Origin: a virus
Taxonomy: Duplodnaviria > Heunggongvirae > Uroviricota > Caudoviricetes
IMG/VR virus record: IMGVR_UViG_2802429220_000015
Reading direction: 5' to 3' (one strand)
Length of the DNA: 32,883 bases
The notes below the pieces were generated by a model that searched no databases, was not told the origin of the DNA, and saw only the letters and a list, made by a program, of their open reading frames with translations. The translations under genes and the position numbers were made by a program. Positions 10,436-30,332 of this stretch are shown piece after piece. How positions within the stretch are numbered: the first letter of the stretch is position 1; the number at the start of each line of letters is the position of its first letter.

Positions 10436-10714
10436 ATGACCAACTATACGGCACCAGGCGAGTATACGGCCTACTCAGAGCAGGCCCGGGATGCTGCCGG
10501 ACGCCGCTTCGCTCATATGAAAAATCTGGCCAGCCAGCTAAACCGAATGGCCGAACAACCGGATATGGTTGTTCAGGAAGAAGCGTTGCAGTGTGCCATT
10601 GCTGACATCATCGCCAGCGAAAACGAGATGCGCGCAGCGATGGAAAAGGCGAACGCCTCTGCTCCGCTTTGTAATAAACCTCTTATTACGCCGGATTCTC
10701 TTTCCCGCTTCTGA
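10436..10714 (+). CDS. Hypothetical protein
   Basis: 92-aa product from the internal ATG of track ORF 10403..10714, with AAGGAGA 6 nt upstream. Confidence 0.5.
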   Translation: MTNYTAPGEYTAYSEQARDAAGRRFAHMKNLASQLNRMAEQPDMVVQEEALQCAIADIIASENEMRAAMEKANASAPLCNKPLITPDSLSRF

Positions 10715-10897
10715 TTTAGCACCCCGCCGCGGCGGGGTGCTGAACTCCCCCAGCAGTACCCACCACACCAGACCGTTTACCCTCTCCACTCAGACCACAA
10801 GGCACCTTAAGGGATAGCGCCCGGCAAAAGTCATTCTGTGCCTTTGACCGGGTGTTATTTACGGGCCGTCAGTGGCTCAGATTTACAGGAGAAACTC

Positions 10898-12861: not shown

Positions 12862-12895
12862 CCACAGCGGCCCGGTTTTCCGGGCCGTCTGATAT

Positions 12896-14554
12896 TTGTA
12901 TACCAGGTGTGACGTGGCAAAACGTAAACTTTCCATTAAAGAGTTTCAGAGAAGCTTACAGGAGTACATCGCCAACCTCCGCCAGACCATTGAGGCTGAA
13001 TGTCTGGGGTTCGATGTTAACCCGCAGGCCACACAGGCCCGCCGGGCGGCAGTCTGTGACCCGGTGACGGGCTACGATTATTTTGTCGAAAACTATTTCC
13101 CGCACTACGTCCGCAACCCGGCAAAAAGCGAGCTGCATAAATACCTGTTCAGCCGTCTGCCACAGGTTGTGGCAAGCCCGGACCCGGAGAACGACGCCAT
13201 CGCCGCGCCCCGTGGTGAAGCAAAATCCACGCTGGTGACGCAGCTGTTTACCCTGTGGACCATTATCCGGGCCATTAAACATTACCCGGTCATCATTATG
13301 GACAGTATCGACCAGGCTTATCCGATGCTGGAAGCCATCAAGGCTGAACTGGAATTTAACCCCCGTTTAAAAAACGATTTCCCGGAGGTGTGCGGACAGG
13401 GGCGCGTCTGGCGTATGGGGACCATCGTCACGGCCAACAATATCAAGGTGACCGTTGCCGGTAGTGGTAAAAAACTGCGTGGTCTGCGCCACGGTCCGTA
13501 CCGTCCTGACCTGGTTATCCTCGACGACATCGAGAACGACGAGATGGTGCGTAACCCGGAGCAGCGCGACAAGCTGCATGACTGGCTCACCAAAACCGTG
13601 ATGCCGCTGGGTGAGGCTGGCGGTAAAACCGATATTATTTATATCGGGACCATCCTGCATTACGACTCCGTACTGTCGCGCACACTCAATAACCCGATGT
13701 GGAAAACAGCCCGCTTTAAGGCCGTTATTCAGTGGCCTGCCAATATGAAGCTGTGGGACGAGTGGGAAGAACTCATCCGCAACAAACAGCCGGAAGCAGC
13801 GGAGGCACTTTACCGGCAGAACGAAGCCGACATGCTCGCCGGGTCGGTGGTGTCATGGGCGGCGCGTCCCCTGCTGGCGCTGATGAAAATTCGTGTCCGT
13901 GACGGCCATGACACCTTTGATTCTGAATACCAGAACGACCCGGTCAGCGGTGAAGATGCGCTGTTTGCGGGCTGCATTCACTTCTGGGTTAACCGTCTTG
14001 ATGAATGGGTGTTCTACGGTGCGGTTGACCCCAGCCTCGGGAAGAAGAATAAAAACCGCGACCCGTCGGCCATTCTCGTGGGGGGCTTTAACCGTTTTAC
14101 CGGCATTCTGGATGTGGTTGAAGCCGATATCCGCCGACGTCTGCCGAATAAACTTATCGAAGACGTGATTAAGTATCAGCGGGAATATCACTGCCTGTGC
14201 TGGTCGTTTGAGTCCGTCCAGTTTCAGGAGTTTCTGCGTACCGTGCTGGTTGAGCGTTCGGCGGCGCTGGGGGTGCAGGTTCCGGCGCTGCCGGTCATCC
14301 CGCTGGAGGATAAGGCGCTGCGTATTGAATCCCTTCAGCCGCATATGGCCAACGGTCTGATTCGTATCAGTCACACACATCAGACACTGATTGACCAGCT
14401 GCGCCACTACCCCAAAGCCGACCACGATGATGGCCCGGACTGTCTGCACATGCTGTGGACGCTGGCGGTATCGCGCAGCGCAAAATTTCAGATACACACC
14501 CCACGCAGCAGCGGGCGTGACCGTGGCGGGCGTTTTGGTTCAGGAGGATGGTAA
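12896..14554 (+). CDS. Terminase large subunit (Mu gp28-like)
   Basis: 552-aa product with Walker A-like RGEAKST; TTG start as given by the track. Confidence 0.88.
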   Translation: MYTRCDVAKRKLSIKEFQRSLQEYIANLRQTIEAECLGFDVNPQATQARRAAVCDPVTGYDYFVENYFPHYVRNPAKSELHKYLFSRLPQVVASPDPENDAIAAPRGEAKSTLVTQLFTLWTIIRAIKHYPVIIMDSIDQAYPMLEAIKAELEFNPRLKNDFPEVCGQGRVWRMGTIVTANNIKVTVAGSGKKLRGLRHGPYRPDLVILDDIENDEMVRNPEQRDKLHDWLTKTVMPLGEAGGKTDIIYIGTILHYDSVLSRTLNNPMWKTARFKAVIQWPANMKLWDEWEELIRNKQPEAAEALYRQNEADMLAGSVVSWAARPLLALMKIRVRDGHDTFDSEYQNDPVSGEDALFAGCIHFWVNRLDEWVFYGAVDPSLGKKNKNRDPSAILVGGFNRFTGILDVVEADIRRRLPNKLIEDVIKYQREYHCLCWSFESVQFQEFLRTVLVERSAALGVQVPALPVIPLEDKALRIESLQPHMANGLIRISHTHQTLIDQLRHYPKADHDDGPDCLHMLWTLAVSRSAKFQIHTPRSSGRDRGGRFGSGGW

Positions 14555-21924: not shown

Positions 21925-22147
21925 GGCGGCTCCCGGGATGAAGTTCCCGATGGAGGATAACGCCCGGAAATACATCACCACGGAAGCAGTGACCGTTGAG
22001 AACACCGCTTATTACCGGCGCGCCGTTCAGGACGGTGACCTGATTCTGGTGAAGGATGAGCCTGAAACCACCGTGACGGCTGAACAGGACGCCGTGCAGG
22101 TAAAAGCGAAGGCGAAGAGAGAGAAACAGGTGGATTCCGATGAGTGA
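21905..22147 (+). CDS. Mu gp38-like protein (DUF2635-like)
   Basis: 80-aa product MNKMKVKAAPGMKFPMEDNARKYITTEAVTVENTAYYRRAVQDGDLILV; small gene immediately before the sheath gene. Confidence 0.6.
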   Translation: MNKMKVKAAPGMKFPMEDNARKYITTEAVTVENTAYYRRAVQDGDLILVKDEPETTVTAEQDAVQVKAKAKREKQVDSDE

Positions 22148-23561
22148 AATTCAGTTTGACACCATTTCGGGCGGCATCCGTAAGCCCGGTGTGCATTTTG
22201 AGTTCAATACCCGGCTGGCCGTTAACACGCTGCCGGGTAACGAACAGCGTGTTCTGGTGATTGGCCCGATGCTGTCAGGCGGCACCGCCACGCCCCTGAA
22301 TGCGGTTTCCGTGTATTCCGAAGACGAAGCGGATTTGTATTTCGGGGCCGGTTCGCTGGCCGCTGCAATGGCGCGCGCGGCTATTAATGCCAACAGCTAT
22401 CTGCAACTGGATGTTATCGGTATTGCAGACAGTGGCGCAGGAAAGGCAGCAACCGGCGCGGTTACCGTCAGCGGTACGGCAATCAGCAGCGGCACACTGT
22501 CGGTATGGGTTGCTGGTGAGCAGGTCACGGTGGATGTGGAAACCGGCGATGAACCGTCGAAAATCATTCCTGCACTGGTGGAGGCAATGACGCAGACGCC
22601 ATCGCTTCTGGTCACGGGGGAATACAAATCAGAAGCCTCTCAGCTGACGGTGACCACCCGGACCAAAGGAGCCTGGGGGAATGACATTACCCTGTCAGCA
22701 TCCACCACGGCAGGTGGTCTGACCGTGAGCGCCACGCCGATGGCGAACGGTGAAATGGACCCGGATATTCAGCCCGCACTGGATGCGGTCTTTGCCGCCG
22801 GTCACAACATTCTGATTTGTCCGTTCAGTACCACGCCAGCCCTTGCCGCCCTGAAGCAGCATCTGGAGAAAACCGGGAACGCGATGGAACAGCGCGGCGC
22901 GATTGGCTGTGCGGGCTGGACGGGCAGTCTCGGAAACGGGATCACCCTGGCAGCCGGTGTGAACAGCGGGCGCGTGTCCGTCCCCTGGTATCGCGGCTCC
23001 GTGAAGCTGCCAGCGGTACTGGCTGCCATCTACGGCGCTGTGATGGCGGGCGAGGAAGACCCGGCGCGTCCGCTGAACTCGCTGGCGCTGTCCGGGCTGG
23101 ATGTGGTCGCCATGTCACAGCGTGAAAGCCGTAACGAGCAGGAAAACGCCCTGCATAACGGCCTGACGCCGGTTGAGGTTGGCCCGGGTAACACGGTGCA
23201 GATTGTGCGTGCGGTCAGTACGTACACGGTTAACGCACAGGGCGTGACTGACGTCTCGTTACTGGATATCACGTCCATCAGAACGCTGGACTACACCCGC
23301 AAGGCGTGCCGCGAACGCATCAGCCTTCGCTTCCCGCGCGAAAAACTCAGCACCCGCACTATCGCAAAAGTGGAAAGCGAACTGTATGACGTGCTGATTA
23401 AGCTGGAGGAAGCGGAAATTCTGGAGAACGTGGAAGCGAACAAGGCAAAGCTGCGCGTTCAGCGAAACGGGAAAGATGCAAACCGTCTCGACTGCGTGGT
23501 TCCGGCGGATGTGGTTAACGGCCTGCATGTGTTTGCCGGTCGCATCGACATGATTTTGTAA
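22140..23561 (+). CDS. Tail sheath protein (Mu L-like)
   Basis: 473-aa product in the conserved position before the tube gene. Confidence 0.88.
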   Translation: MSEIQFDTISGGIRKPGVHFEFNTRLAVNTLPGNEQRVLVIGPMLSGGTATPLNAVSVYSEDEADLYFGAGSLAAAMARAAINANSYLQLDVIGIADSGAGKAATGAVTVSGTAISSGTLSVWVAGEQVTVDVETGDEPSKIIPALVEAMTQTPSLLVTGEYKSEASQLTVTTRTKGAWGNDITLSASTTAGGLTVSATPMANGEMDPDIQPALDAVFAAGHNILICPFSTTPALAALKQHLEKTGNAMEQRGAIGCAGWTGSLGNGITLAAGVNSGRVSVPWYRGSVKLPAVLAAIYGAVMAGEEDPARPLNSLALSGLDVVAMSQRESRNEQENALHNGLTPVEVGPGNTVQIVRAVSTYTVNAQGVTDVSLLDITSIRTLDYTRKACRERISLRFPREKLSTRTIAKVESELYDVLIKLEEAEILENVEANKAKLRVQRNGKDANRLDCVVPADVVNGLHVFAGRIDMIL

Positions 23562-23573
23562 GGAGCGCGGTAA

Positions 23574-23948
23574 ATGTCCATTAAAGAATATGTCGGCTCG
23601 ATTGTGCTGGAGGTGGACAGCCAGGAAATCGAGATCACCGACTTCGATGTTCAGATCAACACCGGGCGAAAGCTGGTCAAGACCATGAACAAAACTGGCA
23701 GGGCAAAAGGCTTTGCCCGTGGCATTGCCACTTACGATATTTCAGTTTCGGCGGTTATCCCTGATACCAACGAGCCGGACTGGGAAAATCTGGAAGGTGT
23801 GAAAATTTCAATTTATCCGCTCAGCAACAGCGGCAAGCGCACCTCCTATCTGGACTGCTTCACTGTTGAAGTGGGTGAGAAATACACCGTCGACAGTGAA
23901 GCGAAAATTGATATCAAAATGGCTGCACTCAGGAAGGTGACAGGATGA
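23574..23948 (+). CDS. Tail tube protein (Mu M-like)
   Basis: 124-aa product between sheath and chaperone genes. Confidence 0.82.
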   Translation: MSIKEYVGSIVLEVDSQEIEITDFDVQINTGRKLVKTMNKTGRAKGFARGIATYDISVSAVIPDTNEPDWENLEGVKISIYPLSNSGKRTSYLDCFTVEVGEKYTVDSEAKIDIKMAALRKVTG

Positions 23949-24328
23949 CTTTGATTAATACACAGACCGGCGAACTGTCTGATGGCGTGGTATTTAACGG
24001 CACCGTTCATAAAAACTTTGAGCTGCGTCTGCCGGTCATGCGTGATAACGGGCAGGCACTGGAAGAAACCGAAGAACGCTTTCAGACGGTGGACGGCTTC
24101 GCGGCAGATTATTACTACCGTTGCGCAGTGATGGCGGCAACGCTGGTCCGTCTTGGGGATATCCCGCAGGAAGAACTGACGGCGGATCTGTTGCACGACA
24201 ACATGACGCCGGACGATTTTAATATTCTGCTGGCATCACGCAACGTCCTGAAGGTAAAGCGGAACGGCGGGAATCCCGGCTCGCCGGACTCCGGCTCGCA
24301 GTCCTTATCCTCGGGCGCTACGGAATAA
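23945..24328 (+). CDS. Tail assembly chaperone candidate
   Basis: 127-aa acidic product between tube and tape measure genes, the conserved position for tail assembly chaperones. Confidence 0.6.
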   Translation: MTLINTQTGELSDGVVFNGTVHKNFELRLPVMRDNGQALEETEERFQTVDGFAADYYYRCAVMAATLVRLGDIPQEELTADLLHDNMTPDDFNILLASRNVLKVKRNGGNPGSPDSGSQSLSSGATE

Positions 24329-24342
24329 CCGAAGAGCAAATC

Positions 24343-24501
24343 ATGACCATGAGCCGTCCCGAGCTGGACGGCTGGCTTGCCGCCGTTGACAGGCTGAACG
24401 GCGGCGGTTCAGGAAGAAAGGACACCTCACAGACCACCCGCCAGTCATTTAAATCCCTCAGAAAGAAACGCAGAAAAGGTAAGCAGAAAAATGGCCGGTA
24501 A
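24343..24501 (+). CDS. Small basic ORF in the -1 frame; possible frameshift extension of the chaperone
   Basis: 52-codon ORF not in the track (under 60 aa); the same reading frame is open from about 24223, overlapping the chaperone 3' end; ends inside the tape measure gene start. Confidence 0.3.
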   Translation: MTMSRPELDGWLAAVDRLNGGGSGRKDTSQTTRQSFKSLRKKRRKGKQKNGR

Positions 24502-26731
24502 TTTCAAAGTTGGCATGACCCTGACTGCGAAGGACGAAGCCTCGCAGGTTCTGGAAAAGGGACAAAAACAGGTTATCAAAGCCACCGAAGGTGTAACAAA
24601 GGCAACACGGAAGGCAGGCGCAGAGCAGAAGCGTACCGAGCAGGAAAGCATTAACAGCACGAAAAAGGCCGCAAAAGAGATACAGCGTGCCGCCCGTGCC
24701 CGGGAAACGCTCGGTATTCGTGCAGAACGTGAAATCCGGCGTGAAATTTATCAGACAGTTGCCAGCTATAACCGTCTGGCCCGCGCCGGTTTTGAATCTG
24801 CGCAGGAGCAGGAGCGCGCCATGCAGGCCGCCCGGGAAAAAGCCCGGGCACTCAAGCGTGAACTGGATGGCGTCACTCAGGCTCAGATGAAGATGGCGAA
24901 AACACCTGTTATCCCGGAGCCGGGGCGTTTTGCACGTGCGGCAGCATTTGGCGGGAATGCCGTGACAATAGGTGGTGGTATCGCGGCAGGTGCTGCCATT
25001 ATGGCGCAGCCGGTCAAAAAGCAGATGAGCTACGAACGCCAGCTGGCAATGATGGCCAATACCGCCTTCAGTGATGGCGGACTGGAGGGGCGCAAAGCCG
25101 GTCTTGAGCAGATGAAAAGCAGCATCCGTAACGCGGTGACCTATGGTGGCGGCACAAAAGAGGATGCAGCCGAAACACTGGATGCCCTGCTGAAAGATGG
25201 CGGTATTTCATTTGACACAGCCAGCAAGTGGCTGCCTGAACTGATGAAATACGCCACGGCTTCCGGTGCATCAGCGACAGACCTGGCTAATGTGATGCTT
25301 AAGGGCAAAAAGACTTTTGGATTCAGGGATGAAGATATTTCCACCGTTCTGAATATGGCAATTGCAGCGGGCAAAGAAGGCAGCTTTGAACTGAGCGACA
25401 TGGCCCGATGGTTATCTTCGCAACTGGGGTCAGCGTCAGCTGCGGGGATGAAAGGCAAAGATGATTTCGTCAAGATTCTGGCACTGAATGAAGCTGCTGC
25501 CATCACGGCGGGAAGCAGTGATGAGGCCGGAAATAACGTGTTTAACCTGCTGGCTAAACTGACCAGCCACGATATTGAAACAGCGGCAAAGAGCATTGAT
25601 TACAACGGTAAAGGAATTGATTTTTCCGGTACGCTGGTTCAGGCGCGCGAGCATGGGCTTGATCCGATAGATGCGCTGTCCAGCCTGATAGACAAAATCG
25701 TTGCCAGCGATAAACGCTTTCAGGAGTTGCAAAAGAAACTGGCCTCCGCCCGGGATAAAGGTGAGCAGACGGCTGTTTACGATTCGATGGCAAAACTCCT
25801 TGAAGGCTTTGGTGTCGGGAAACTGGTTGCAGACCAACAGGCGTTAAAAGCGTTGCTGGCTTACCGTAACAACCCTGAATACCGCAAGAAGGTTGAAGAT
25901 GCGGTTAATCAGCAGCGCACCCTGCCGGAAGGTCAGCGCGCGGGTGATGTGGATTTTAACTTCATATCCGGCCTCAATGACTTTAAAACCGAACAGGCTA
26001 AAAACACGCTTGAATTTTCACAAATGGATGGTGTGAAAAAACTGGCTGATGCATCCGGGACTGTGGCCGATGCCATAAGCTGGGCGGGTGAAAAATTTCC
26101 GGGGCTGACCACAGCAGTGGTGACAGCTACCACAGCCATTAAAGCGATGACAGCAGCGGCCGTCACGTTTGCGGGGCTGAAACTTATTACCGGTAATCCA
26201 GTGTCCGGAGGAGCAGATAAGCCCGATGATACTGGGGATACTGCATCCAAAGTTAAAGATATCAGTGAAGTCGCTTCCGGCAATCAGGGACGTCTGGGAA
26301 AAATAATGGGCGCTGCCGGAAAAATTGCAACCATTTACGCAGGCTATGAGGCCGCAGAAGAACTTTATGGGGCTGTTGTTGGCGATACCATCAAGAACTT
26401 TACAGATAATCATGGTTTGTTTTTTGCAGACGATGGCTCCTTGTTCTTTACCCGTGAAGGAATGCTTAAACGGGATAATGAGCTGAAAGCCGCAGCTGAT
26501 GCTCTGCCATCACCGGAGCAGGTGAACACAGCCGCCGGAAACACAACGCCTGAATCAGCATCAAAGCAACCCGGACGCATCACCCAGCCGGAATACCTCA
26601 CGCACTGGGGACCACCTGCCAGCCCCATTAATTTCACCACACAACTGGTGCTCGATGGTCAGGTCGTGGCGGAGGCAGTGAACAAATACAACCTTCAGGA
26701 CGGCAACAGAGGCACGGGAGGAACTTACTGA
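24491..26731 (+). CDS. Tail tape measure protein
   Basis: 746-aa Ala/Gly-rich product with long helical regions; position after the chaperone. Confidence 0.9.
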   Translation: MAGNFKVGMTLTAKDEASQVLEKGQKQVIKATEGVTKATRKAGAEQKRTEQESINSTKKAAKEIQRAARARETLGIRAEREIRREIYQTVASYNRLARAGFESAQEQERAMQAAREKARALKRELDGVTQAQMKMAKTPVIPEPGRFARAAAFGGNAVTIGGGIAAGAAIMAQPVKKQMSYERQLAMMANTAFSDGGLEGRKAGLEQMKSSIRNAVTYGGGTKEDAAETLDALLKDGGISFDTASKWLPELMKYATASGASATDLANVMLKGKKTFGFRDEDISTVLNMAIAAGKEGSFELSDMARWLSSQLGSASAAGMKGKDDFVKILALNEAAAITAGSSDEAGNNVFNLLAKLTSHDIETAAKSIDYNGKGIDFSGTLVQAREHGLDPIDALSSLIDKIVASDKRFQELQKKLASARDKGEQTAVYDSMAKLLEGFGVGKLVADQQALKALLAYRNNPEYRKKVEDAVNQQRTLPEGQRAGDVDFNFISGLNDFKTEQAKNTLEFSQMDGVKKLADASGTVADAISWAGEKFPGLTTAVVTATTAIKAMTAAAVTFAGLKLITGNPVSGGADKPDDTGDTASKVKDISEVASGNQGRLGKIMGAAGKIATIYAGYEAAEELYGAVVGDTIKNFTDNHGLFFADDGSLFFTREGMLKRDNELKAAADALPSPEQVNTAAGNTTPESASKQPGRITQPEYLTHWGPPASPINFTTQLVLDGQVVAEAVNKYNLQDGNRGTGGTY

Positions 26732-29944: not shown

Positions 29945-29981
29945 CCTGATTCTGACCTGTCCATGCTGCCAGACTGGCGGC

Positions 29982-30332
29982 ATGGACCAGACGATTTCAC
30001 CTGCAACCGGCGACTACGAACGCCGCCGGATTTATACACTCCATAACGCGGTTTATCTGCGACTGGCGACACCGCTTGGCAGTTACTGGGCGGATGCGTC
30101 GCTGGGGTCACGCCTGCACGAACTGAAGCGGGAAAAAGACGTTTCCCGTGTTCACAGGCTGGCGGCGCAGTATGCCAGCCAGGCACTTCAGCCCCTGCTT
30201 GATGACGGGCGGGCAAAATCCATTACCGTTGACACGAAAGCGGGCCAGCGAGGCTGGCTGTTGCTGTTAATCACCGTCACGGATAACGCGGGCACACCGC
30301 AGACGTTTGAACACCCTGTGAGGATTATGTAA
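29982..30332 (+). CDS. Baseplate protein (Mu gp46-like)
   Basis: 116-aa product; position in the baseplate gene block. Confidence 0.7.
   Translation: MDQTISPATGDYERRRIYTLHNAVYLRLATPLGSYWADASLGSRLHELKREKDVSRVHRLAAQYASQALQPLLDDGRAKSITVDTKAGQRGWLLLLITVTDNAGTPQTFEHPVRIM

What the first reader, a model, noticed from the sequence alone, without database searches (positions are those of the whole stretch)
24223..24501. Possible programmed frameshift extension of the tail assembly chaperone
Seen in sequence: a reading frame offset by -1 from the chaperone gene is open from about 24223 through 24501, overlapping the last 100 nt of the chaperone and ending inside the start of the tape measure gene; it encodes a basic tail (…RKKRRKGKQKNGR). 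Established knowledge: tail assembly chaperones between tube and tape measure genes are commonly made in two forms by frameshifting. I could not find a canonical X-XXY-YYZ slippery heptamer by eye, so this is weakly supported.
Basis: partly seen in the sequence, partly recalled or inferred. Interest (0 to 1): 0.45.

Follow-up and report, generated by a model that had tools for sequence, protein, structure and literature searches.

The report
Unannotated tail chaperone -1 frameshift
A Mu-like E. coli prophage almost certainly makes a second, longer form of its tail assembly chaperone by a -1 ribosomal frameshift at a weak, non-canonical slippery site (G_GUA_AAG), which is an ordinary phage strategy that genome annotation has missed here.

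Summary
The -1 frame is stop-free from 24223 to 24501, overlaps the last 106 nt of the chaperone gene (23945-24328), and ends 11 nt inside the tape measure gene.

The frameshift reading is supported by comparison with relatives.
- The -1-frame codons upstream of the small ORF's ATG contain no start codon, yet they are conserved: 50% identity between clades, against 41% for the chaperone body.
- The distance from the slip-site Lys to a conserved Met is exactly 31 codons in all 19 sequences compared.
- Third-position variability switches from the 0 frame to the -1 frame at the site.

The site is G_GTA_AAG (24253-24259). Its A_AAG is the only Z_ZZN motif in the open overlap. Of 58 distinct relatives, 43 carry the canonical A_AAA_AAG at the homologous position, one carries lambda's G_GGA_AAG, and 14 carry G_GTA/GCA_AAG.

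Five nt downstream lies a predicted 7-bp GC hairpin (24265-24286). It sits in the least variable stretch of a 1.4-kb alignment and is a plausible stimulator, but there is no covariation to prove it.

The predicted products are a 127-aa chaperone and a 185-aa fusion. Mu itself uses a -2 shift at a different motif.

Verdict: a new, unannotated member of the known G/GT-type frameshift class. Interest is modest.

The parts
23574..23948 (+). Tail tube gene (124 aa), immediately upstream of the chaperone
   Evidence: phrog_185 tail tube protein, E 3.3e-35. It follows the sheath gene 22140-23561 (Pfam sheath domains).
23945..24328 (+). Tail assembly chaperone, 0-frame product (127 aa, 13.9 kDa, pI 4.5). 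Residues 1-106 are the folded domain. The tail from about residue 107 to 127 is low-complexity, with pLDDT below 50 for 113-127
   Evidence: phrog_508 tail assembly chaperone, E 8e-40. AlphaFold2 model: pLDDT 78, last helix 89-106, residues 113-127 below 50. Foldseek match to Mu FS-gp41 P0DJY4: probability 0.99, TM 0.52, E 0.038.
24220..24222 (+). TAA that closes the -1 frame upstream, the 5' limit of the frameshift window in this sequence
   Evidence: In relatives the -1 frame opens only 12-15 nt (L070, L074, L063) or 6 nt (most of the A_AAA_AAG clade) before the junction.
24253..24259 (+). Proposed slip site G_GTA_AAG. The functional core is A_AAG (24256-24259), with Lys105 decoded as AAG and re-paired on AAA
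   Evidence: It is the only Z_ZZN motif in the open overlap. It aligns with A_AAA_AAG in 43 of 58 distinct relatives, G_GGA_AAG in 1, G_GCA_AAG in 5 and G_GTA_AAG in 9. K105-R106 are invariant in the chaperone alignments.
24265..24286 (+). Candidate stimulatory hairpin: stem CGGCGGG (24265-24271) pairs with CTCGCCG (24280-24286), loop AATCCCGG (24272-24279), 5 nt after the slip site
   Evidence: It is the local minimum-free-energy structure, -12.5 kcal/mol, in the top 1.1% of all 28-nt windows of the window. It lies in the diversity minimum (0.042 against a mean of 0.28) and contains the only invariant run of 12 nt or more (24266-24287) in a 1.4-kb alignment of 11 relatives. RNAalifold recovers it, but no pair covaries.
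24259..24501 (+). -1-frame extension ('T' segment): 80 codons plus stop. Fused to chaperone residues 1-105 it gives a 185-aa, 20.9-kDa, pI 9.3 product with a basic C-terminal tail
   Evidence: Translation. Alignment A4 has invariant G10, L16, L18, G19 and G22, all upstream of the ATG.
24343..24501 (+). Small ORF as called by annotation pipelines (52 aa, hypothetical protein WP_000178828.1). It is the C-terminal two-thirds of the extension
   Evidence: PGAP annotation. phrog_3114, E 8.9e-19. Database homologues are all 50-64-aa 'hypothetical' ORFs.
24349..24351 (+). Conserved Met of the extension, exactly 31 codons after the slip-site Lys in all 19 sequences compared. It is Leu in relatives L095-L100
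24491..26731 (+). Tape measure protein gene (746 aa). Its ATG overlaps the end of the extension (ATGGCCGGTAA)
   Evidence: PF10145, E 7e-20. phrog_794, E 4e-225.

Best explanation
The window is the tail module of a Mu-like transposable prophage of E. coli.

Most ribosomes translating the chaperone gene stop at 24326-24328 and release a 127-aa acidic chaperone. A minority slip back one nucleotide at G_GUA_AAG (24253-24259). The single E. coli tRNA-Lys (anticodon mnm5s2UUU) leaves AAG (24257-24259) and re-pairs on AAA (24256-24258). Translation then continues with GCG (24259) in the -1 frame to the stop at 24499-24501. The result is a 185-aa fusion: the folded chaperone domain (residues 1-105) joined to an 80-aa, basic 'T'-like segment.

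Only the A_AAG half of a heptamer is intact, so the P-site codon GUA cannot re-pair well on GGU. The shift is therefore probably helped by the invariant GC-rich hairpin that begins 5 nt downstream (24265-24286), and possibly by slow decoding of the rare 0-frame CGG codon that follows.

By analogy with lambda gpG/gpGT, the common N-terminal domain would coat the tape measure protein and the extension would recruit the tube protein, with the frameshift rate fixing the ratio of the two forms.

What is shown by sequence comparison: the frame layout, selection on the -1 frame upstream of any start codon, and the position of the junction. What is inferred: the slip mechanism, the role of the hairpin, the efficiency, and the division of labour between the two domains.
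For: (a) Gene context. Sheath, tube, chaperone, small ORF and tape measure lie in that order. The element is Mu-like.

(b) Protein conservation upstream of the ATG.
- The -1-frame peptide upstream of the ATG (...LAGLRLAVLILGRYGITEEQI) is conserved in relatives whose chaperone is only 37-65% identical.
- Between-clade identity is 50% for this segment, against 41% for the chaperone body and 38% for the 0-frame tail.
- It is exactly 31 codons long, with no indels, in all 19 sequences. The 0-frame tail varies between 23 and 31 residues.

(c) Codon-position variability.
- Upstream of the site, variability peaks at 0-frame position 3 (0.53, against 0.28 and 0.22 at positions 1 and 2).
- Downstream, it peaks at -1-frame position 3 (0.39, against 0.18 and 0.16 at positions 1 and 2).
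- That downstream pattern matches the undisputed coding part after the Met.

(d) Start codons. No ATG/GTG/TTG exists in the -1 frame between the junction and codon 28-31 in any relative. L095-L100 have none before codon 63.

(e) The junction.
- It aligns with the canonical in-frame A_AAA_AAG in 43 of 58 distinct junctions, and in most of these a -1-frame stop sits immediately 5' of the A-run.
- One relative has G_GGA_AAG, the lambda G/GT heptamer (PMC3296357, Table 1).

(f) A natural fusion. L039/L113 has 9 instead of 8 A's, which creates an in-frame ORF identical to the predicted frameshift product.

(g) Uniqueness. A_AAG is the only Z_ZZN motif in the open overlap.

(h) Published support for the motif.
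- A_AAG is the most shift-prone tetramer in E. coli, reaching 5.6% with a downstream pseudoknot but about background without one (PMC4066793).
- IS1222 productively uses G_CGA_AAG (PMC5009743).

(i) The hairpin region is the diversity minimum of the locus and lies 5 nt downstream of the site. Downstream 40-nt folding energy is about -16 kcal/mol in the degenerate-heptamer clade, against a mean of -9.2 in the A_AAA_AAG group.

(j) The AlphaFold2 model places the slip site at the end of the last helix of the folded domain. The 0-frame tail is largely low-confidence, with pLDDT below 50 for 113-127.
Against: - There is no experimental evidence for either product.
- The heptamer is non-canonical. 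After a -1 shift the P-site GUA (GCA in relatives) has a middle-position mismatch, so efficiency could be very low.
- The hairpin is invariant, so there is no covariation. A 106-nt fold of the region is no more stable than shuffles (z = 0.19). The invariance could come from dual coding alone.
- The contrast in downstream stability between the clades rests on a single lineage, which is effectively one evolutionary event.
- The extension shows no detectable similarity to Mu's extension or to any Pfam or PDB entry.
- The chaperone's similarity to Mu gp41 is weak.
- In many relatives the 0-frame stop overlaps or abuts the Met codon (ATGA or TAATG). That arrangement is also the signature of termination-reinitiation coupling, so a separate short product may be made as well.
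Confidence: 0.8

Rival explanations
1. The small ORF (24343 or 24349 to 24501) is an ordinary separate gene, as annotated. It is translated from its own ATG, either by de novo initiation or by termination-reinitiation after the chaperone stop. No frameshift product is made.
For: - PGAP and other pipelines call it this way.
- The phrog_3114 profile starts at the Met.
- The Met at 24349 is conserved in most relatives.
- In relatives the 0-frame stop often overlaps that ATG (ATGA in L032, L041 and L049; TAATG in L022 and L025). In the window the stop lies 14 nt upstream of ATG 24343.
Against: - The 28-31 codons upstream of the ATG have no start codon, yet they are the most conserved part, and their third-position variability is in the -1 frame.
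- Shine-Dalgarno pairing is weak: -2.1 kcal/mol here and mostly 0 to -2.6 in relatives.
- L095-L100 have Leu at that position and no start before codon 63.
- The canonical A_AAA_AAG sits exactly at the start of the conserved peptide in 43 of 58 relatives.
- A single-sequence AlphaFold2 model places helix 1 (residues 3-21 of the extension) entirely upstream of the ATG. This model is of low confidence.
Confidence: 0.08
2. A fusion is made, but by a different route or at a different place: transcriptional slippage by RNA polymerase, or a ribosomal shift elsewhere in 24223-24328.
For: - Relatives carry an A8 run, where polymerase slippage is conceivable, and one assembly (L039/L113) has A9.
- In the window the -1 frame is open from 24223, so sites upstream of 24253 are formally possible.
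Against: - The window has only an A3 run, too short for appreciable transcriptional slippage (established knowledge).
- In relatives L070, L074 and L063 the -1 frame opens only 12-15 nt before the junction. The conserved -1 peptide starts right after the Lys codon. Together these pin the shift to about 24247-24262.
- No other Z_ZZN motif lies in the open overlap.
Confidence: 0.07
3. The open -1 frame across the chaperone's 3' end is a chance or by-product feature with no expressed extension. The conservation reflects only nucleotide-level constraints, such as an RNA or DNA element.
For: - A 35-codon off-frame open stretch occurs in about 10% of runs in this window.
- The 24266-24287 block is invariant at the nucleotide level.
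Against: - Amino-acid-level conservation with synonymous-type variation in the -1 frame extends well beyond the invariant block and across clades whose DNA differs.
- Spacing is constant at 31 codons.
- The arrangement recurs in all 58 distinct junctions examined.
Confidence: 0.03

Closest known systems
Phage lambda gpG / gpGT tail assembly chaperone, -1 programmed frameshift at G_GGA_AAG (Levin, Hendrix & Casjens 1993; Xu, Hendrix & Duda 2004, 2013, 2014)
   Same: - The position is the same: between the tail tube (major tail) gene and the tape measure gene.
[quoted passage not shown]
- The extension has no start codon for its conserved N-terminal part.
- One relative (L029/L072) has exactly lambda's heptamer (PMC3296357; PMC5009743).
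   Different: - The window's heptamer is degenerate (G_GUA_AAG).
- This is a contractile-tail, Mu-like phage.
- No sequence similarity to lambda G or T was found.
- A conserved downstream hairpin is predicted here. To my recollection no comparable stimulator is described for lambda; this was not checked.
Phage Mu gp41 / FS-gp41 (Mup41; UniProt P0DJY4), verified -2 frameshift
   Same: - The virus type is the same (transposable myovirus) and so is the gene order: sheath, tube, chaperone, tape measure.
- The fusion is of similar size: 188 aa in Mu, 185 aa here.
- There is weak profile and fold similarity of the chaperone domain: hhalign E 5e-4 with probability 32%, and Foldseek TM 0.52 with probability 0.99.
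   Different: - Mu shifts -2 at CGG_GGG_CGA into the +1 frame. Here the extension is in the -1 frame at A_AAG.
- The extensions show no detectable similarity.
Tetramer-type -1 frameshifting at A_AAG in bacterial insertion sequences (IS3; IS1222 at G_CGA_AAG)
   Same: - The slip depends on tRNA-Lys moving from AAG to AAA, with a P-site codon that cannot re-pair well.
- Such sites need a downstream structure to reach percent-level efficiency (PMC4066793; PMC5009743). A GC-rich hairpin 5 nt downstream is predicted here.
   Different: - The gene system is different (transposase rather than tail chaperone).
- The IS3 stimulator is a pseudoknot. Only a simple 7-bp hairpin is predicted here, and it is unproven.
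E. coli dnaX and IS911/IS150 A_AAA_AAG -1 frameshift sites
   Same: Most relatives of this locus (43 of 58 distinct junctions) use exactly this heptamer at the homologous position.
   Different: The window itself has lost the first half of the heptamer. No upstream Shine-Dalgarno-like stimulator lies at the dnaX-type spacing; the AAGG at 24251-24254 is only 2 nt from the A_AAG.

Membership tests
G/GT-type tail assembly chaperone with programmed frameshift (Xu, Hendrix & Duda 2004) | The gene pair lies between the tail tube/major tail gene and the tape measure gene | tested here: met
   Tube 23574-23948, chaperone 23945-24328, extension to 24501, tape measure 24491-26731.
G/GT-type tail assembly chaperone with programmed frameshift (Xu, Hendrix & Duda 2004) | A second ORF overlaps the 3' end of the first in another frame, and its conserved N-terminal part lacks an initiation codon | tested here: met
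   The -1 frame is open from 24223 and its first start codon is at 24343. The 28 codons between the slip site and that ATG are conserved and show -1-frame codon periodicity.
G/GT-type tail assembly chaperone with programmed frameshift (Xu, Hendrix & Duda 2004) | Canonical X_XXY_YYZ slippery heptamer in the overlap | tested here: not met
   The window has G_GTA_AAG, so only the A_AAG tetramer is intact. The feature is met in relatives: A_AAA_AAG in 43 of 58 and G_GGA_AAG in 1 of 58. Non-canonical sites are accepted within this class (PMC10274946; Mu's -2 site).
G/GT-type tail assembly chaperone with programmed frameshift (Xu, Hendrix & Duda 2004) | The two-frame arrangement is conserved in related phages | tested here: met
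   All 58 distinct junctions from viral and genome contigs keep the extension joined at the same A_AAG. Two loci (L076, L116) were flagged as a different frame relation by a crude heuristic and were not resolved.
G/GT-type tail assembly chaperone with programmed frameshift (Xu, Hendrix & Duda 2004) | Both products are made in a fixed ratio, are required for tail assembly, and are absent from virions | not testable with these tools
   This needs expression, genetics and proteomics.
G/GT-type tail assembly chaperone with programmed frameshift (Xu, Hendrix & Duda 2004) | Sequence or fold relationship to recognised tail assembly chaperones | tested here: met
   phrog_508 'tail assembly chaperone', E 8e-40. 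Weaker support comes from Pfam Gp41_Mu (best E 0.03 in 6 of 13 homologues) and Foldseek hits to Mu FS-gp41 and other named chaperones at E 0.04-0.3. There was no PDB hit.
Mu gp41 / FS-gp41 frameshift | -2 shift at CGG_GGG_CGA into the +1 frame | tested here: not met
   The extension is in the -1 frame and no G-run motif is present.
Mu gp41 / FS-gp41 frameshift | Homology of both the chaperone and the extension to the Mu proteins | tested here: inconclusive
   Chaperone: hhalign probability 32%, E 5e-4, and fold TM 0.52. Extension: no similarity.
A_AAG tetramer-type -1 frameshift site with downstream stimulator (IS3/IS1222-like) | In-frame A_AAG with a -1 ORF open across it | tested here: met
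   A_AAG at 24256-24259, with AAG as a 0-frame codon.
A_AAG tetramer-type -1 frameshift site with downstream stimulator (IS3/IS1222-like) | Stable RNA structure starting about 5-9 nt downstream that stimulates the shift | tested here: inconclusive
   A 7-bp hairpin at 24265-24286: -12.5 kcal/mol, top 1.1% of windows, invariant in 11 relatives. There is no covariation, and the 106-nt fold is not better than shuffles.
A_AAG tetramer-type -1 frameshift site with downstream stimulator (IS3/IS1222-like) | The host decodes AAA and AAG with a single tRNA-Lys (UUU) | not tested
   This is established for E. coli (PMC4066793; PMC5009743). The host is taken to be E. coli from 100%-identical chromosomal matches.

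The most novel reading that the evidence does not exclude
In this lineage the ancestral strong heptamer (A_AAA_AAG, kept by about three quarters of relatives) was replaced by a bare A_AAG tetramer together with a newly fixed, invariant GC hairpin 5 nt downstream. This would be a natural example of a frameshift signal being rebuilt, with a weak slip site plus an RNA stimulator replacing a strong slip site without one, while the chaperone-to-fusion ratio is held constant. In addition, a free 5.9-kDa basic peptide might be made from the ATG by termination-reinitiation, which would give three products from one locus.
Probability: 0.3. Interest if true: 0.4.

Novelty: new member of a known kind. 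Interest (0 to 1): 0.3.

Why it matters
Practical value. These prophages are present in 56 of 5,426 complete E. coli genomes. They are annotated with three 'hypothetical proteins' where there is in fact a tube protein, a tail assembly chaperone and its frameshift extension. The 52-aa ORF call is most likely a truncated piece of a 185-aa protein. Correcting this would improve phage and prophage annotation and add training cases for frameshift predictors that rely on canonical heptamers.

Biological value. The family offers a tidy natural series (A_AAA_AAG, G_GGA_AAG, G_GCA_AAG, G_GUA_AAG at one homologous position, with or without a conserved hairpin). It could be used to ask how frameshift efficiency is kept constant while the signal changes. 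It also shows that Mu-like phages do not all share Mu's unusual -2 mechanism. None of this challenges current understanding.

Tried and rejected
- **Pfam scans** of the chaperone and of the -1 stretch gave no hits at E <= 0.01. At E <= 10 there were only weak Gp41_Mu hits for the chaperone and one Phage_P2_GpE hit at E 0.11 for the extension.
- **DNA and protein searches** of the GenBank phage collection found only three distant records. Mu was not found by similarity.
- **Folding of 24240-24345** was no more stable than shuffles, z = 0.19. Only the short local hairpin stands out.
- **Rfam** had no frameshift-element family match.
- **RNAalifold** found no covariation, because the stem is invariant.
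- **A pseudoknot** between the hairpin loop and downstream CCUCGGG was considered by eye. I rejected it because the partner varies (CGGG or CGGA) without compensation.
- **An upstream Shine-Dalgarno-like stimulator** (AAGG at 24251-24254) was considered. I rejected it because it lies 2 nt from the site rather than about 10, and it is absent in L026.
- **PDB searches** by sequence and by fold gave nothing significant.
- **The extension model** (single sequence, pLDDT 68) gave no meaningful fold matches.
- **An apparent similarity** between the extension and Mu's extension (LILGRYG against VILKSG, MSR against LSR) was not supported by hhalign.
- **The genome-contig scan** returned only three loci.
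- **A protein search with the extension** returned only 10 short 'hypothetical' ORFs and no annotated fusion.
- **The promoter/terminator scan** gave counts no higher than shuffles, and nothing relevant at the site.
Full report
**1. What is in the sequence**

The window is a Mu-like transposable prophage of E. coli.
- It encodes a MuA-like transposase, a MuB-like ATPase, a Mu portal, Mu F, protease I, the gpT capsid protein, gp37, and gpP and J baseplate proteins.
- The 1.1 kb around the finding is 100% identical to a chromosomal region of E. coli 08-00022, and 56 of 5,426 complete E. coli genomes hold a match at 90% identity or more.

The tail module is laid out as follows.

| Feature | Coordinates | Evidence |
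|---|---|---|
| Sheath | 22140-23561 | |
| Tube | 23574-23948 | phrog_185, E 3e-35 |
| Tail assembly chaperone, 127 aa | 23945-24328 | phrog_508, E 8e-40 |
| 52-aa ORF | 24343-24501 | phrog_3114, function unknown |
| Tape measure gene | 24491-26731 | |

PGAP annotates the tube, the chaperone and the small ORF as three 'hypothetical proteins'.

**2. Check of the observation**

The chaperone is in codon phase 2 (mod 3) and the small ORF in phase 1, which is -1 relative to the chaperone. That frame has a TAA at 24220-24222 and is then open to the TAA at 24499-24501. It overlaps the chaperone's last 106 nt and the first 11 nt of the tape measure gene. Its first possible start codon is ATG 24343.

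In the -1 frame of 16 large genes of this window, 40 of 414 stop-free runs reach 35 codons and only 1 reaches 93. The overlap alone is therefore not unusual. The evidence has to come from conservation.

**3. The -1 frame upstream of the ATG is protein-coding**

I collected relatives from IMG/VR, GTDB genomes and GenBank phages.

The peptide encoded in the -1 frame between the chaperone's Lys105 codon and the ATG is AERRESRLAGLRLAVLILGRYGITEEQI. It is recognisably conserved in phages whose chaperone is only 37-47% identical. One example is ADARTAGLSGLRRATLILGRFGISGDRI in Klebsiella phage ST405-OXA48phi1.1.

Between the two clades:

| Segment | Mean identity | Length |
|---|---|---|
| -1 frame, slip site to conserved Met | 50% | exactly 31 codons in all 19 sequences |
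| Chaperone body | 41% | |
| Extension after the Met | 39% | |
| 0-frame tail | 38% | 23-31 residues |

The alignment of the extension has invariant G10, L16, L18, G19 and G22, all upstream of the ATG.

Nucleotide variability by codon position switches at the site. In the window's clade the values, given in the order -1-frame positions 1/2/3 (which are 0-frame positions 3/1/2), are:

| Region | Position 1 | Position 2 | Position 3 |
|---|---|---|---|
| 150 nt upstream of the site | 0.53 | 0.28 | 0.22 |
| End of the invariant block to the Met | 0.18 | 0.16 | 0.39 |
| After the Met (undisputed coding) | 0.16 | 0.16 | 0.36 |

Upstream of the site the wobble position of the 0 frame varies most. 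Downstream the wobble position of the -1 frame varies most.

One substitution illustrates this. In L017, TAA becomes TCA. This removes the chaperone's stop and lengthens the 0-frame product by six residues, yet it is synonymous (ATA to ATC, Ile) in the -1 frame.

No ATG, GTG or TTG occurs in the -1 frame between the junction and codon 28-31 in any relative. This conserved segment can therefore only be translated by ribosomes that arrive from the chaperone frame.

**4. Where the shift happens**

In relatives L070, L074 and L063 the -1 frame opens only 12-15 nt before the junction. In most of the distant clade a stop sits 6 nt before it (CTT AAA AAA AAG, which reads xCT TAA AAA AAA G in the -1 frame). 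The conserved -1 peptide starts directly after the Lys codon. That confines the shift to about 24247-24262.

Heptamers at the homologous position in 58 distinct junction sequences:

| Heptamer | Count | Note |
|---|---|---|
| A_AAA_AAG | 43 | the dnaX/IS911 heptamer |
| G_GTA_AAG | 9 | includes the window |
| G_GCA_AAG | 5 | |
| G_GGA_AAG | 1 | the lambda G/GT heptamer (PMC3296357, Table 1) |

The shared element is A_AAG followed by CG. In the window it is the only Z_ZZN motif of any kind in the open overlap. K105 and R106 are invariant in the chaperone alignments.

One assembly (L039/L113) has nine A's instead of eight. The resulting in-frame ORF (...IEAIKKKADGFEQKLTGYR...) is exactly the predicted frameshift product.

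The AlphaFold2 model of the chaperone (pLDDT 78) ends its last helix at residue 106, and residues 113-127 have pLDDT below 50. The shift therefore occurs at the boundary of the folded domain, as expected for a domain-fusion frameshift.

**5. Mechanism**

The following is inferred from established knowledge.
- E. coli has a single tRNA-Lys (anticodon UUU) that pairs less well with AAG than with AAA. This makes A_AAG the most shift-prone tetramer in E. coli.
- In reporter assays the tetramers on their own were barely above background (0.147% on average, against 0.112% without a motif). With the IS3 pseudoknot A_AAG was the most efficient of them, at the top of a 0.26-5.6% range (PMC4066793).
- IS1222 productively uses G_CGA_AAG (PMC5009743).
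- In the window the P-site codon GUA (GCA in relatives) would face GGU (GGC) after the shift, a middle-position mismatch. The site should therefore behave as a tetramer site and need a stimulator.

Evidence for a stimulator.
- Five nt downstream the local minimum-free-energy structure is a 7-bp hairpin: stem 24265-24271 with 24280-24286, an 8-nt loop, -12.5 kcal/mol. That puts it in the top 1.1% of all 28-nt windows of the window.
- In a 1.4-kb alignment of 11 clade members, mean pairwise difference is 0.28 overall and 0.30-0.40 over most of the chaperone gene.
- The minimum is 0.042 at 24261-24290.
- The only invariant run of 12 nt or more is 24266-24287.
- Downstream 40-nt folding energy is about -16 kcal/mol in all 15 degenerate-heptamer junctions, against a mean of -9.2 (range -1.8 to -17.1) in the 43 A_AAA_AAG junctions.

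Caveats.
- The stem is invariant, so nothing covaries.
- A 106-nt fold is not better than shuffles.
- Dual coding alone could hold the sequence fixed.
- The clade contrast is phylogenetically a single event.

I therefore rate the hairpin's role as plausible (about 0.45) rather than shown. The rare CGG codon after AAG could also slow 0-frame decoding, but it is CGC in L029 and this was not tested.

**6. Products and function**

| Product | Length | Mass | pI |
|---|---|---|---|
| 0-frame chaperone | 127 aa | 13.9 kDa | 4.5 |
| Frameshift fusion | 185 aa | 20.9 kDa | 9.3 |

The fusion consists of residues 1-105 plus 80 residues, ending in the basic tail RKKRRKGKQKNGR.

The proposed function is an analogy only. 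In lambda, the G domain of gpG and gpGT binds the tape measure protein, and the T domain binds the tube protein and recruits it, at a ratio of about 30:1 (PMC5009743). I assume the same division of labour here.

**7. Rival readings**

- **Independent translation of the short ORF.** Annotation favours it, and so does the frequent overlap of the 0-frame stop with the conserved ATG in relatives (ATGA or TAATG). The points in section 3 argue against it as the only route. So do the weak Shine-Dalgarno pairing (-2.1 kcal/mol, against -6 to -10 for most neighbours) and relatives L095-L100, which have Leu at that position and no start before codon 63. A short product made in addition remains possible.
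- **Transcriptional slippage.** This is conceivable at the A8 run of relatives but not at the window's A3.
- **Chance.** This is excluded by the amino-acid-level conservation.

**8. Comparison with Mu and others**

The GenBank record of Mu annotates a verified -2 shift (PMID 15469818) at CGG_GGG_CGA, which joins gp41 to a +1-frame extension. The review PMC5009743 confirms that Mu uses -2.

- The window's extension is in the other frame and at a different motif.
- The chaperone domains are only weakly similar: hhalign probability 32% and E 5e-4, and Foldseek TM 0.52 with probability 0.99 to Mu FS-gp41.
- The extensions show no detectable similarity.
- One distant relative (L050) carries a T-like peptide in the +1 frame, as Mu does. 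The direction of the shift has therefore changed within the wider group.

The closest mechanistic analogue is lambda G/GT. The closest analogues for the slip site are the A_AAG sites of IS3 and IS1222.

**9. Verdict**

This is an unannotated -1 programmed frameshift of the well-known tail-assembly-chaperone type. It is notable only for a degenerate heptamer and a possibly compensating hairpin. It is a new member of a known kind. Interest is 0.3.

Noticed in passing
window 24489-24533 (tape measure start) and 24491-24501: The tape measure ATG overlaps the end of the frameshift extension (ATGGCCGGTAA). Its Shine-Dalgarno pairing is weak (-3.9 kcal/mol). Its first 45 nt or so are the second most conserved stretch of the 1.4-kb alignment (diversity 0.07-0.09). 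This may point to translational coupling or a conserved initiation region.
   Followed up: partly
L039 1768-1790 (same contig as L113): This relative has a run of 9 A's where its close relatives have 8. The chaperone and the extension are therefore fused into one in-frame ORF. It could be a sequencing or assembly error at a homopolymer, or a real variant.
   Followed up: partly
L050 1781-1951: A distant relative (chaperone about 30% identical to the Klebsiella phage protein) carries a T-like peptide (LLALLKLGFSYTEALAMPWSEAFAYLDA) in the +1/-2 frame rather than the -1 frame, as in phage Mu. The direction of the frameshift appears to differ within the wider family.
   Followed up: no
L095, L096, L099, L100 (junction at about 1201): In these relatives the otherwise conserved Met of the extension is Leu (IRQLNQAQLDGY). 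No in-frame start codon occurs before codon 63, or none at all, so the extension there can only be reached by frameshifting.
   Followed up: partly
L001 5928-7127 (E. coli 08-00022, NZ_CP013662.1): In the strain whose sequence matches the finding region at 100%, the tape measure gene is interrupted by an IS66-family element (ISCro1 transposase). The window's tape measure gene is intact (746 aa).
   Followed up: no
window about 10713-10745, 12862-12893, 29959-29990: These are the most stable 28-nt hairpins of the window (-20 to -24 kcal/mol). The one at 12867-12888 (GCGGCCCGG TTTT CCGGGCCGT) lies just upstream of the 552-aa ORF at 12896, which may be the large terminase. They may be terminators or regulatory structures of the late operon.
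   Followed up: no
window 24326-24351 and the homologous sites in L022, L025, L032, L041, L049: The chaperone's 0-frame stop abuts or overlaps the ATG codons of the extension (TAATG or ATGA in relatives; in the window a second 0-frame TGA lies within ATGACC at 24344-24346). This is partly forced by Met-Thr/Ser in the -1 frame. It would also allow termination-reinitiation to yield a free short peptide.
   Followed up: partly
L076 and L116 (junction regions): My automatic frame assignment flagged these two loci as having the extension in the +1/-2 frame of the longest upstream ORF, although their junction sequence is the same A_AAA_AAG as in their near-identical neighbours (L075, L117). The likely cause is an indel or a contig-end effect upstream. 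This was not resolved.
   Followed up: no
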